From the human T2T-CHM13v2.0 reference genome, Homo sapiens, in the NCBI RefSeq assembly GCF_009914755.1, contig NC_060933.1: DNA of 64,000 bases. One strand, 5' to 3'. Of the stretch, positions 4,462-28,100 are shown piece after piece; the first letter of the stretch is position 1; every line of letters starts with the position of its first letter. A program made the position numbers and the translations under genes. The notes beneath the pieces are model-generated. The model worked only from the letters and a program-made list of their open reading frames with translations. It searched no databases and was not told the DNA's origin.

Positions 4462-7400
4462 AACACCATTTATTAAATAGGGAATCCTTTCCCCATTGCT
4501 TGTTTTTGTCAGGTTTGTCAAAGATCAGATGGTTGTAGATGTGTGGTGTTATTTCTGGGGCCTCTGGTCTGTTCCATTGGTCTCTATATATGTTTTGGTA
4601 CCAGTACCATGCTGTTTTTGTTACTGCAGCCTTGTAGTATAGTTTGAAGTCAGGTAACAGCTTTGTGCTTTTTGCATAGGATGGTCTTGGCTATGTGGGC
4701 TCTTTTTTGGTTCCATATGAAATTTAAAGTAGATTTTTCCAATTCTCTGAAGAATGTAAAAGATAGCTTGATGGAGATAACATTGAATCTATAAATTACT
4801 TTGGGGAGTATGGCCATTTTCACAATATTGATTCTTCCTATCCATGAGCATGGAATGTTTTTCCATTTGCTTGTGTCTTGAGCAGTGGTTTATAATTCTC
4901 CTTGAAAAGGTCCTTCACATCCCTTGTAAGTTGGATTCCTAGGTATTTAATTCTCTTTGTAGCAATTGTGAATGGAAGTTCACTCATGATTTGGCTCTCT
5001 GTTTGTCTGTTATTGGTGTATAGGAATGCTTGTGAATTTTGCACATTGATTTTGTATCCTGAGACTTTGCTGAAGTTGCTCATCAGCTTAAGGAGATTTT
5101 GGGCGGAGACGATGGAGTTTTCTAAATATACAATCATGTCATCTGCAAACAGAGATAATTTGACTTCCTCCCTTCCTGTTTGAATACCCTTTATTTCTTT
5201 CTTTTGTCTGATTGTCCTGGCCAGAATTTCCAACACTATGTTGAATAGGAGTGGTGAGAGAGGGCATCCTTGTCTTGTGCGGGTTTTCAAAGGGAATGCT
5301 TCCAGTTTTTGCCCATTCAGTATAATATTTGCTGTGGGTTTGTCATAAGTAGGTCTTATTATTTTGAGATACATTCCATCAATACCTAGTTTATTGAGCG
5401 TTTTTAGCAGGAAGAGATGTTGAATTTTATCAAAGGCCTTTTCTGCATCTATTTAGATAATCACGTGTTTTTTGTCATTGTTTCTGTTTATGTGATGGAT
5501 TATGTTTATTGATTTGTGTATGTTGAACTAGCCTTGCATCCCTTGGATGAAGCTGACTTAATTGTGGTGGATAAGCTTTTTGATGTGCTGCTGGATTCAG
5601 TTTGCCAGTATTTTATTGTGGATTTCTGCATCAATGTTCATCAGAGATATTGGCCTAAAATTCTCTTTTTTTGTTGTGCCTCTGCCAGGTTTTGGTATCA
5701 GGATGATGCTGGCCTCATAAAATGAGTTAGGGAGGATTCCCTCGTTTTCTATTGTTTGGAATAGTTTCAGAAGGGATGGTACCAGCTCCTCTTTGTACCT
5801 CTGGTAGAATTCAGCTGTGAATCCGTCTGGTCCTGGACTTTTTTTGGTTGGTAGGCTATTAATTACTGCATCAATTTCAGAACTTGTTATTGGTCCATTA
5901 AGGGATTCAACTTCTTCCTGGTTGAGACTTGGGAGGGTGTATGTGTCCAGGAATTTATACATTTCTTTTAGATTTTCTAGTTTATTTGTGTAGAGTTGTT
6001 TATAGTATTCTCTGATGGTAGTTTGTATCTCTGTGGGATTGGTGATGATATCCCCTTTATCATTTTTTATTGCGTATATTTGATTTTTCTCTCTTCTTTC
6101 ATTAATGTGGCTGGTGTTCTATCTATTTTGTTGGTCTTTTCAAAAAAACAGCTCCTGGATTCACTGATTTTTTTAAGGCTTTTTCATGTCTCTGTCTCCT
6201 TCAGTTCTGCTCTGTTCTCAGTTTTTTCTTGTCTTCTGCTAGCTTTTGAATTTGTTTGCTCTTGCTTTTCTAGTTCTTTGAATTGTGATGTTAGGGTGTC
6301 AGTTTTAGATCTTTCCCACTTTCTCTTGTGGGCATTTACTGCTATAAATTTCCCTCTACACACTGCTTTAAATGTGTCCCAGAGATTCTGGTACATTGTG
6401 TCTTTGTTGTCATTGGTTTCAAAGAACTTATTTATTTCTGCCTTAATTTCATTATTTACCTAGTAGTCATTCAGGAACAGTTTGTTCAGTTTCCATGTAG
6501 TTGTGCGGTTTTGAGTGCGTTTCTTAATCTTGAGTTCTAATTTGATTGCACTGTGGTCTGAGAGACTGTTATGATTTCCATTCTTTTGCATTTGCTGAGG
6601 AGTGTTTTACTTCCAATTATGTGGTCAATTTTAGAATAAGTGCGATGTGGTGCTGAGAAGAATGTATATTCTGAAGATTTGGATGATTTGGGGTGGAGAG
6701 TTCTGTAGATGTCTATTAGGTCCACTTGGTCCAGAGCTGAGTTCAAGTTCTGAACATCCTTGTTAATTTTCTGTCTTGATGATCTGTCTAATATTGACAG
6801 TGGGGTGTTAAAGTCTCCCTACTATTGTGTGGGAGTCTAAGTCTCTTTGTAGGTCTCTGAGGACTTGCTTTATGAATCTGGGTGCTCCTGTATTGGGTGC
6901 ATATATATTCAGGATAGTTAGCTCTTCTTGTTGAATTGATCCCTTTACCATTATATAATGGCCTTCTTTGTCTCTTTTGATCTTTGTTGGTTTAAAGTCT
7001 GTTTTATCAGAGACTAGGATTGCAATTCCTACTTTTTCTTTGCTTTCCATTTGCTTGGTAAATATTCCTCCATTCATTTATTTTGAGTCTATGTGTGTCT
7101 TTGCACATGAGATGGGTCTCCTGAATACAGCACACTGATGGGTCTTGACTCTTTATCCAATTTGCCAGTCTGTGTCTTTTAATTGGGGATTTTAGCCCAT
7201 TTACACTTAAGGTTAATATTGTTATGTGTGAATTTGATCGTGTCATTATTATGCCAGCTGGTTATTTTGTGCATTAGTTGATGCAGTTTCTTCATAGTGT
7301 CAATGGTCTTTACAATTTGGTGTGTTTTTGCAGTGGCTTGTCCTTGTTGTTTCTTTCCATGTTTAGTGCTTCCTTCAGGAGCTCTTGTAAGGCAGGCCTG

Positions 7401-25100: not shown

Positions 25101-28100
25101 TTTGTTGATCTTTTCAAAAAACCAGCTCCTGGATTCATTGATTTTTTGAAGGTTTTTTTGTGTCTCTATTTCCTTCAGTTCTGCTCTGATCTTAGTTATT
25201 TCTTGCCTTCTGCTAGCTTTTGAATGTGTTTGCTCTTGCTTCTCTAGTTTTTTAATTGTGATGTTAGGGTGTCAATTTTAGATCTTTCCTGCTTTCTCTT
25301 GTGGGCATTTAGTGGTATAAATTTCCCTCTACACACTGCTGTGAATGTGTCCCAGAGATTCTGGTATGTTGTGTCTTTGTTCTCATTGGTTTCAAAGAAC
25401 ATCTTTATTTCTGGCTTCATTTCGTTATGTACCCAGTAGTCATTCAGGAGCAGGTTGTTCAGTTTCCATGTAGTTGAGTGATTTTGAGTGAGTTTCTTAA
25501 TCCTGAGCTCTAGTTTGTTTGCACTGTGGTCTGAGAGACAGTTTGTTATAATTTCTGTTCTTTTACATTTGCTGAGGAGTGCTTTCCTTGCAACTATGTG
25601 GTCAATTTTGGAATAGGTGTGATGTGGTGCTGAAAAGAATGTATATTCTGTTGATTTGGGGTGGAGAGTTCTGTAGATGTCTATTAGGTCTGCGTGGTCC
25701 AGAGCTGAGTTCAATTCCTGGATATCCTTGTTAACTTTCTGTCTTGATGATCTGTCTAATATTGACAGTGGGGTGTTAAAGTCTCCCTACTATTGTGTGG
25801 GAGTCTAAGTCTCTTTGTAGGTCTCTGAGGACTTGCTTTATGAATCTGGGTGCTCCTGTATTGGGTGCATATATATTTAGGATAGTTAGCTCTTCTTGTT
25901 GAATTGATCCCTTTACCAGTATGTAATGGCCTTCTTTGTCTCTTTTGATCTTTGTTGGTTTAAAGTCTGTTTTATCTGAGACTAGGATGGCAACCCCTGC
26001 CTATTTTTGTTTTCCATTTGCTTGGTAGATCTTTCTCCATCCCTTTATTTTGAGACTATGTGTGTCTCTGCACGTGAGATGGGTTTCCTGAATATAGCAC
26101 ACTGATAGGTCTTGACTCTTTATCCAATTTGCCAGTCTGTGTCTTTTAATTGTAGCATTTAGCCCATTTACATTTAAGGTTAATATTGTTATGTGTGAAT
26201 TTGATCCTGTCATTATGATGTTAGCTGGTTATTTTGCTCATTAGTTGATGCAGTTTCTTCCTAGCCTGGATGGTCTTTACAGTTTGGCATGTTTTTGCAG
26301 TGGCTGGTACCGGTTGTTCCTTTCCATGTTTAGTGCTTCCTTCAGGAGCTCTTTTAGGGCAGGCCTGGTGGTGACAAAATCTCTCAGCATTTGCTTGTCT
26401 GTAAAGGATTTTATTTCTCCTTCACTTATGAAGCTTAGTTTGGCTGGATATTAAATTCTGGGTTGAAAATTCTTTCCTTTAAGAATGTTGAATATTGGCC
26501 CCCACTCTCTTCTGGCTTGTAGAGTTTCTGCCGAGAGATCAGCTGTTAGTCTGATGGGCTTCCCTTTGTGGGTAACCCGACCTTTCTCTCTGGCTGCCCT
26601 TAACATTTTTTCCTTCATTTCAACTTTGGTGAATCTGACAATCTTGTGTCTTGGAGTTGCTCTTGTTGAGGAATATCTTTGTGGCGTTCTCTGTATTTCC
26701 TGAATTTGAATGTTGGCCTGCCTTGCTAGAGTGGGGAAGTTCTCCTGGATAATATCCTGCAGAGTGTTTTCCAGCTTGGTTCCATTCTCCCCGTCACTTT
26801 CAGGTACACCAATCAGACATAGATTTGGTCTTTTCACATAGTCCCATATTTCTTGGAGGCTTTGTTTATTTCTTTTTATTCTTTTTTGTCTAAACGTCTT
26901 TCTCACTTCATTTCATTCATTTCATCTTCCATCACTGATACCCTTTCTTCCAGTTGATCGAATTGGCTACTGAGGCTTCTGCATTCATCATGTAGTTCTC
27001 ATGCCGTGGTTTTCACCTCCATCAGGACCTTTAAGGACTTCTCTGCCTTGGTTATTCTAGTCAGCCATTCGTCTAATTTTTTTTTCAACGTTCTTAACTT
27101 CTTTGCCATGGGTTCAAACTTCCTCCTTTAGCTCGGAGTAGTTTGATCTTCTGAAGCCTTCTCTCAACTCGTCAAAGTCATTCTCCATCCAGCTTTGTTC
27201 CGTTGCTGGTGAGGAGCTGCGTTACTTTGGAGGATGAGAGGTGCTCTGATTTTTAGAGTTTCTGGTTTTTCTGTTCTGTTTTTTCCCCATCTTTGTGGTT
27301 TTATCTACCTTTGGTCTTTGATGATGGTGACATATAGATGGGTTTTTGGTGTGGATGTCCTTTCTGTTTGTTAGTTTTCCTTCTACCAGTCAGGACCCTC
27401 AGCTGCAGGTCTGTTGGAGTTTGCTGGAGGTCCACTCCAGACCCTGTTTGCCTGGGTATCAGCAGCGGTGGCTGCAGAACAGCGGATATCGGTGAACCGC
27501 AAATGCTGCTGCCTGATCGTTCCTCTGGAAGTTTTGTCTCAGAGGGTTACCCGGCCGTGTGAGGTGTCAGTCCGCCCCTACTGGGGGATGCCTCCCAGTT
27601 AGGCTACTCGGGGGTCAGGGACCCACTTGAGGAGGCAGTCTGCCCATTCTCAGATCTCATGCTGCATGCTGGAGAACCACTACTCTCTTCAAAGCTGTCA
27701 GACAGGGACATTTAAGTCTGCAGAAGTTACTGCTGCCTTTTGTTTGTCTGTGCCGTGCCCCCAGAGGTGGAGCCTACAGAGGCAGGCAGGCCTCCTTGAG
27801 CTGTGGTGGGCTCCACCCAGTTTGAGCTTCTGGGCCACTTTGTTTAGCTACTGAAGCCTCGGCTATGGTGGGCGCCCCTCCCCCAGCCTCACTGCCGCCT
27901 TGCAGTTTGATCTCAGACTGCTGTGCTAGCATTGAGTGAGGCTCCATGGGCGTAGGATTCTCTGAGCCAAGTGCGGGATATAATCTCCTGTTGTGCCGTT
28001 TGTTAAGCCCATTGGAAAAGCGCAGTATTAGGGTGGGAGTGATCCGGTTTTCCAGGTGCCATCTGTCACCCCTTTCTTTGACTAGGAACGGGAATTCCCT

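What the first reader, a model, noticed from the sequence alone, without database searches (positions are those of the whole stretch)
6768..25877. A 142-bp perfectly identical tract with a shared frameshift between L1s of different subfamilies (L1-A 6768-6909 = L1-B 25736-25877)
Seen in sequence: the two tracts match base for base, including gtctccctactattgtg. This is 2 nt shorter than L1-C (gtctcccattattattgtg) and destroys the endonuclease GDFN motif (reads TIVGRL*). In this tract L1-B departs from its sister L1-C (tgatgatc vs cgttgatc, atattgac vs atgttgat, ggtctctgagg vs ggtcactcagg), while immediately to the left it follows L1-C again (tcaattcctggatatcc). Inference: this is a sharply bounded gene-conversion tract across 19.0 kb, most likely from L1-A into L1-B, and more recent than the B/C homogenisation.
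Basis: partly seen in the sequence, partly recalled or inferred. Interest (0 to 1): 0.8.

Follow-up and report, generated by a model that had tools for sequence, protein, structure and literature searches.

The report
Short gene conversion between two L1s
Two dead L1 retrotransposons of different ages, 19 kb apart on human chromosome 9, share a 142-base stretch that is letter-for-letter identical because one copied it from the other during DNA repair, which is a real but ordinary kind of event.

Summary
Window 6768-6909 equals 25736-25877 exactly (142 bp). The two L1s are about 90% identical in the 1.3 kb around it. Their next-longest exact run is 53 bp, and 0.0002-0.001 runs of 142 bp or more are expected.

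The tract carries three rare states: A at 6779, a 2-nt deletion at 6819/6820, and C at 6822. All three are shared by A and B. None of A's 57 other rare events in 1.5 kb is shared with B. The 22-mer spanning the deletion occurs genome-wide only in these two copies.

L1-A is an older type and L1-B and L1-C a younger type. A short non-allelic gene conversion is the best explanation, at about 0.85.

The direction is not resolved. Site 6793 points to A as donor, site 6862 to B, and counts of private changes fit both. Five or six of the 13 columns where B differs from C are C's own mutations.

"B/C homogenisation" is not shown. B and C share rare variants along their whole length without patchiness.

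All three elements are long dead. This is a known kind of event, of low interest.

The parts
6768..6909 (-). Tract copy in L1-A: 142 bp identical to 25736-25877. It lies in the ORF2 endonuclease region; the L1 sense strand is the minus strand.
25736..25877 (-). Tract copy in L1-B.
6819..6820 (.). Site of the shared 2-nt deletion; the same site in B is 25787/25788. It shifts the ORF2 frame just before the GDFN motif. The other two shared rare states flank it: A at 6779 and C at 6822.
   Evidence: Genome-wide rarity.
6767..6767 (.). Left boundary. A has T, the old-type state in 11 of 11 old copies. B and C have C, the state in 17 of 18 mid and 31 of 32 young copies.
6910..6910 (.). Right boundary. 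A has a private C; B, C and 60 of 61 other copies have T. The 40 bases 6911-6950 are again identical, but A and B differ at 6951 and 6955.
58392..58535 (-). Homologous 144-bp segment of L1-C. It is unconverted, its frame is intact here, and it carries 5-6 private mutations of its own.
3206..8796 (-). L1-A: the older type, 5'-truncated relative to B and C. Its longest minus-strand ORF is 178 aa.
22194..28310 (-). L1-B: the younger type, about 6.1 kb. Its longest ORF is 613 aa, against a 1275-aa ORF2p.
54830..60963 (-). L1-C: the younger type and B's closest relative.

Best explanation
A single short non-allelic (ectopic) gene conversion occurred between L1-A and L1-B. These are two same-orientation, long-dead L1 copies of different ages, 19.0 kb apart.

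Inferred mechanism: a break in one element was repaired by homologous recombination with the neighbouring L1 as template. A patch of at most 142 bp (6768-6909) was copied. It is at least 44 bp long (6779-6822, by the shared rare states). Everything outside the patch was left untouched.

The patch carried the donor's private mutations into the acceptor, including the 2-nt deletion that breaks the endonuclease reading frame.

The event is recent relative to the age of both elements, since A and B show no difference in 142 bp. Which element was the donor is not resolved: roughly 55% A into B and 45% B into A.

Shown: the identity, its boundaries, the shared rare variants, their rarity in the genome, and the distinct subfamily backgrounds. 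Inferred: the repair mechanism, and whether the event was germline-meiotic or mitotic.
For: 1. Exact 142-bp identity in elements that are 86.6% identical overall and 0.900 identical in the 1.3 kb of flanks.
2. The next-longest exact run is 53 bp, and 2e-4 to 1e-3 runs of 142 bp or more are expected.
3. Inside the tract there are 13 columns where A=B but C differs, and none where B=C but A differs. Over the whole element 631 of 932 variable columns are of the B=C type, so about 16 would be expected in 142 bp.
4. A has 60 rare events in 1.5 kb. Three lie in the tract and all three are shared with B. None of the other 57 is shared with B. 1/C(60,3) = 2.9e-5.
5. In the whole assembly only A and B match the tract at 100%; the next best hit is 97% (40 of 1723 candidates were scored).
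6. The 22-mer across the deletion is found only at A and B.
7. The flanks keep distinct types. A has the old state at 15 of 20 old-versus-mid/young sites, and B has the young state at 19 of 20.
8. The literature describes non-allelic conversion between dispersed repeats, with higher rates between nearby copies (passages read in PMC6598467 and PMC8230782).
Against: - No outgroup or second human haplotype could be examined, so the ancestral state of either locus is unknown and the non-reciprocal nature of the event is not shown.
- The two subfamily-diagnostic sites inside the tract point in opposite directions (6793 versus 6862). Either direction therefore needs one coincidental private mutation.
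- The flanking identity of about 90% is at the low end of what supports homologous repair.
- The same 2-nt deletion together with C at 6822 also arose independently in an unlinked L1 (C6:118908053), so the deletion alone is not unique evidence.
- An assembly error could not be excluded from reads.
Confidence: 0.85

Rival explanations
1. Assembly or polishing artefact: the 142 bp in one L1 was written over with the other's sequence during assembly or polishing of the reference.
For: No tool result supports this.
Against: The two elements are only 86.6-90% identical, so long reads should not be mis-assigned between them (inference). The patch is bounded within a few bases by sites that keep each element's own type. 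That pattern is typical of conversion and not of collapse.
Confidence: 0.04
2. No exchange took place: A and B are each unmutated here by chance, or the region is conserved, and the deletion arose twice.
For: Apart from 3-5 sites, the tract is close to the common state of many L1 copies; other copies are 89-98% identical to it. A similar 2-nt deletion recurs at 7 other places.
Against: Independent evolution predicts about 6.8 private events in A and 3.2 in B at different sites. Instead the two sequences are identical, including three rare states. The other 61 copies all differ from A in the tract by at least 5 events. 2e-4 to 1e-3 runs of 142 bp or more are expected.
Confidence: 0.01
3. B was born chimeric: during B's insertion the reverse transcriptase switched templates to a transcript of A and back.
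For: Mosaic L1s formed by template switching are known from recall only.
Against: The patch would then be as old as B and should have diverged. From B's rate (0.022) and A's rate (0.047) per site since then, several differences are expected in 142 bp. None is seen.
Confidence: 0.01
4. Both A and B were converted by a third L1 that carries this haplotype.
For: The tract matches the 'mid' type at both diagnostic sites: A at 6793 in 14 of 18 mid copies, and G at 6862 in 17 of 18. That would remove the conflict over direction.
Against: No other copy in the assembly carries the haplotype; the best is 97% identical, and the 22-mer is unique to A and B. This model also needs two events with identical end points.
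Confidence: 0.02

Closest known systems
Non-allelic gene conversion between Alu elements (partial, 'hybrid' Alus; higher rates between neighbours within about 10 kb)
   Same: It is a short patch copied between dispersed retrotransposon copies of different subfamilies. It is recognised by subfamily-diagnostic and non-diagnostic shared mutations, and proximity favours it (passages read in PMC8230782 and PMC6598467).
   Different: Here the partners are L1s rather than Alus, they are 19 kb apart (beyond the roughly 10-kb range quoted for Alus), and they are only about 90% identical. The direction could not be set because no orthologues were available.
[quoted passage not shown]
   Same: It is experimental evidence that L1 copies serve as ectopic repair templates for each other.
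   Different: Only the title was seen, in the reference list of PMC7407515; the paper itself is not held. That work concerns an induced break in cultured cells. This case is a natural, fixed or segregating event in a human genome.
Interlocus gene conversion in human segmental duplications
   Same: The process is the same: a non-reciprocal short tract that raises identity locally.
   Different: Those paralogues are usually more than 90-95% identical and arose by DNA duplication (PMC3790853 and PMC10172114, search listing only). Here the paralogy comes from independent retrotransposition.
L1 recombination-associated deletions (Han et al. 2008)
   Same: Both involve ectopic pairing of same-orientation L1s on one chromosome.
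   Different: That outcome is a crossover, which deletes the interval. Here the 19-kb interval is intact, so the event resolved without a crossover. Only the reference-list entry was seen, in PMC7407515.

Membership tests
Non-allelic (interlocus) gene conversion tract | A segment whose identity between two paralogues is far above that of its flanks | tested here: met
   142 of 142 bases are identical, against 0.900 in 1.3 kb of flanks. The next-longest run is 53 bp, and 2e-4 to 1e-3 runs this long are expected.
Non-allelic (interlocus) gene conversion tract | Private (non-family) mutations shared by the two copies only inside the segment | tested here: met
   Three of the 3 rare states in the tract are shared, and 0 of 57 outside it. 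The 22-mer is unique to A and B genome-wide.
Non-allelic (interlocus) gene conversion tract | Flanks keep each paralogue's own identity, so this is not a duplication or a crossover | tested here: met
   A is old-type and B young-type on both sides of the tract. The 19-kb interval is present.
Non-allelic (interlocus) gene conversion tract | Non-reciprocal transfer: donor unchanged, acceptor changed relative to its ancestral state | not testable with these tools
   This needs orthologous loci in other primates or other human haplotypes. Internal evidence on direction conflicts.
Non-allelic (interlocus) gene conversion tract | Really present in the DNA and not an assembly artefact | not testable with these tools
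   No reads or second assembly were available.
LINE-1 (L1) retrotransposon, ORF2 endonuclease region | Translation matches L1 ORF2p endonuclease | tested here: met
   The homologous segment of C matches 1VYB residues 116-182, E 9.3e-37. Pfam Exo_endo_phos scores 19.8 bits on this 68-aa piece, below its 24.5 cut-off.
Different L1 subfamilies for A and B | Different states at sites that separate older from younger genomic copies | tested here: met
   A has the old state at 15 of 20 sites and B the young state at 19 of 20. A's best genomic matches are 91% identical and B's are 96%. No subfamily names (L1PA numbers) were assigned, because no reference library was available.

The most novel reading that the evidence does not exclude
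The conversion may be very recent, either human-specific or still polymorphic. The three same-orientation L1s in this 58-kb stretch upstream of JAK2 may then form a locally interacting set. In support, B and C are each other's uniquely closest relatives genome-wide: a 24-mer with two of their shared variants occurs only in them. Yet they differ at 6 of 29 lineage-marker sites. That could reflect repeated ectopic exchange or local copying and not two unrelated insertions. If so, the locus would be a natural place to measure L1-L1 ectopic repair and its crossover risk.
Probability: 0.15. Interest if true: 0.4.

Novelty: new member of a known kind. Interest (0 to 1): 0.22.

Why it matters
This is a clean, well-bounded example of a dead L1 patching, or being patched by, a neighbour of a different age.

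Such patches move private mutations between copies. They can mislead subfamily assignment, age estimates from divergence, and mutation-rate estimates based on L1 remnants.

The patch has no consequence for L1 activity, because all three elements are fragmented. No functional element was seen at the site.

Its main value is as a calibrated case (142 bp, 19 kb apart, about 90% flank identity) for a genome-wide survey of L1-L1 conversion in complete assemblies.

Tried and rejected
1. Other A=B or 'B alone' runs in the three-way alignment (near A 4950 and A 5760-5880) turned out to be alignment shifts. They come from a 1-bp indel in C and a 17-bp deletion in B, not further tracts.

2. I tried to link the old-type left marker to site 6862 by gapped genome patterns. 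The question of whether some old-type subfamily natively has G at 6862 therefore rests on 15 of 15 sampled old-type copies having A.

3. Copies sharing B/C variants were fetched to recover B's native tract state. They proved to be a mixture of old, mid and young types, so those variants are recurrent or ancestral. They did not settle the direction.

4. Lineage markers between the younger subgroups show the B/C ancestor as intermediate. B and C differ at 6 of 29 markers, so the native state at 6856/6859 stays ambiguous.

5. A patchiness test for B/C conversion was negative: P=0.34 on the mean and 0.68 on the median.

6. The PRDM9-like 13-mer (motif recalled) matches 8 times in the window against 0.9 expected. 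None lies in or next to either tract copy; the nearest are at 11293 and 36375.

The Tremblay 2000 paper is not held.

8. One search failed because the chosen frame contained stop codons. It was replaced by in-frame translations.
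Full report
**Observation**

The window holds three L1 elements in the same orientation, with the L1 sense strand on the minus strand.
- A lies at 3206-8796, B at 22194-28310 and C at 54830-60963.
- BLAST identities are A/B 86.6%, A/C 87.4% and B/C 94.6%.

Window 6768-6909 is identical to 25736-25877, and the exact match stops at both ends.
- A and B read GTCTCCCTACTATTGTG where C reads GTCTCCCATTATTATTGTG.
- On the minus strand A and B give [11 protein letters not shown].
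- C gives [15 protein letters not shown]. This aligns to residues 116-182 of the human L1 ORF2p endonuclease 1VYB, E 9.3e-37.

**More than chance**

- In a three-way alignment the tract holds 13 columns where A=B but C differs.
- It holds none where B=C but A differs. Elsewhere 631 of 932 variable columns are of that class, so about 16 would be expected in 142 bp.
- The next-longest A-B exact run is 53 bp, and the longest A-C run is also 53 bp.
- Under a geometric model, 2e-4 runs of 142 bp or more are expected for the whole element and 1e-3 for its better-conserved part.
- Two other apparent runs in the alignment were indel shifts, not tracts.

**Comparison with other genomic copies**

The assembly that holds the window could be searched.
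- The tract matches at 100% only at A and B. The next hit is 97% (40 of 1723 candidates were scored, so counts are lower bounds).
- The 22-mer across the deletion occurs only at A and B.
- Only 9 places match that 22-mer within two mismatches. These include an unlinked young L1 at C6:118908053 with the same deletion plus the C (alignment).

I aligned 61 other copies over A 6100-7600. The copies were chosen by similarity to the tract or to A's surroundings, plus those from the deletion pattern. Duplicates of A, B and L024 were dropped.
- A is 0.73-0.914 identical to all of them in the flanks, and 0.900 to B. B is therefore unremarkable outside the tract and uniquely identical inside it.
- A has 60 rare events (state present in 10% or fewer of the copies). 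Three lie in the tract (A at 6779, the deletion, C at 6822), and all three are shared with B.
- None of the other 57 is shared with B; one (6302) is shared with C. 1/C(60,3) = 2.9e-5.

**Different subfamilies**

I grouped the copies by whether their flanks resemble A or B more: 11 old, 18 mid and 32 young.
- A has the old state at 15 of 20 sites that separate old from mid and young. B has the young state at 19 of 20 and C at all 20.
- A's best genomic matches are 91% identical and B's are 96%.
- I assign no L1PA numbers, because no reference library was at hand.

**Boundaries**

- On the left, 6767 is T in A (old, 11 of 11) and C in B (young, 31 of 32).
- On the right, 6910 is a private C in A, against T in B and in 60 of 61 others.
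- The tract is therefore at most 142 bp long.
- The shared rare states span 6779-6822, and the two diagnostic sites reach to 6862, so the tract is at least 44-84 bp long.

**Direction**

The evidence conflicts.
- B carries A at 6793. This is the old/mid state; 31 of 32 young copies have G, as do six further young-type copies and C. This points to A as donor.
- A carries G at 6862. All 11 old copies and four more old-type copies have A there. This points to B as donor.
- The tract differs from the old majority by 5 events, where A's flank rate predicts 6.77 (P=0.136).
- It differs from the young majority by 5 events, where B's flank rate predicts 3.15 (P=0.11).
- C at 6822 is seen in 3 of 32 young, 2 of 18 mid and 0 of 11 old copies. 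This leans slightly towards B.
- B differs from its sister C at 12 events here, more than their usual divergence predicts. However, five of these are C's own private changes (6798, 6799, 6850, 6874, 6903), and 6777, 6856 and 6859 are polymorphic among young copies.
- Attempts to recover B's native state from copies sharing B/C variants failed, because those copies are a mixture of types.
- Lineage markers show the B/C ancestor as intermediate.

I leave the direction open, at roughly 55:45 for A into B.

**Age**

A and B show no difference in 142 bp, which bounds their pairwise divergence since the event at about 2% (3/142, the 95% bound). That is about 1% per lineage. B's private divergence is 1.75-2.2%. 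The conversion therefore falls in the more recent half of B's residence. In years this is under about 10 million, using a recalled neutral rate.

**B and C**

- B and C share 26 rare columns (about 24 events) over 4.4 kb, including a 3-nt deletion. B has 77 private columns and C has 82.
- A 24-mer with two of the shared variants is found only in B and C genome-wide.
- Other shared variants occur in 7 and 11 places, in mixed L1 types.
- The shared variants are not concentrated in long identical runs: P=0.34 and 0.68.
- C is no closer to B than unlinked copies are: 2428 bits against 2446 and 2428.

B and C are thus real sisters, but patchy 'homogenisation' is not shown. Why two such close relatives lie 32 kb apart is unexplained.

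**Consequence**

I infer no consequence for L1 function. The longest minus-strand ORFs are 178 aa in A, 613 aa in B and 643 aa in C, against 1275 aa for ORF2p. The frameshift is therefore one lesion among many.

**Known context**

- Non-allelic conversion between dispersed repeats is well described for Alu, including partial conversions between subfamilies and higher rates between neighbours (passages read in PMC8230782 and PMC6598467).
- L1-templated repair of a break in a LINE is cited in PMC7407515 (reference list only). The paper itself was not held.
- My searches listed no paper on this particular locus. That is not evidence that none exists.

**Verdict**

This is a real, neatly bounded L1-L1 gene-conversion tract. 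It is an ordinary event of a known kind. The direction and date remain open until primate orthologues or other human haplotypes are read.

Noticed in passing
window 22194-28310 and 54830-60963: L1-B and L1-C share about 24 rare variants over 4.4 kb. A 24-mer holding two of them occurs only in these two copies genome-wide. Yet they differ at 6 of 29 lineage-marker sites and have unrelated flanks. Why such close sisters lie 32 kb apart in the same orientation is unexplained.
   Followed up: partly
window 26313-26544 = 58971-59202: This is the longest B-C exact run, 232 bp, where 0.011 are expected under a geometric model. It holds two shared variants that also occur in 5 unlinked copies. It could be a B/C conversion patch or a slowly mutating stretch.
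   Followed up: partly
L024/L034 (G000:C6:118908053-118908074): An unlinked young-type L1 carries the same 2-nt deletion plus the C at the 6822-equivalent site. It lacks the other tract states, so the deletion is recurrent.
   Followed up: partly
window 6673-6681 and 24850: L1-A has a private 9-bp insertion that looks like a local duplication. L1-B has a private 17-bp deletion.
   Followed up: no
window 6731 / 25699: B carries the old-type C at this site, 37 bp left of the tract; 0 of 32 young copies have it. One unlinked copy (C2:31947134) has the same string, but one search places it (L075) among the old-type copies. It may be a detached conversion patch or a coincidence.
   Followed up: partly
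window 11293, 13583, 36375, 49439, 51835, 52130, 53470, 62560: There are eight matches to the recalled PRDM9-type 13-mer, against 0.9 expected from shuffles. Most read CCNCCTTNGCCTC, which I recall as an Alu-borne string. None is near the tract copies.
   Followed up: no
L006/L007 (G000:C23:118763793 + and 118721731 -); L038/L039 (C23:88545174 and C24:3351370): Two pairs of L1 copies look nearly identical to each other in the aligned stretch. One is an inverted pair 42 kb apart on contig 23. The other is a contig-23/contig-24 pair. They are probably parts of larger duplications.
   Followed up: no
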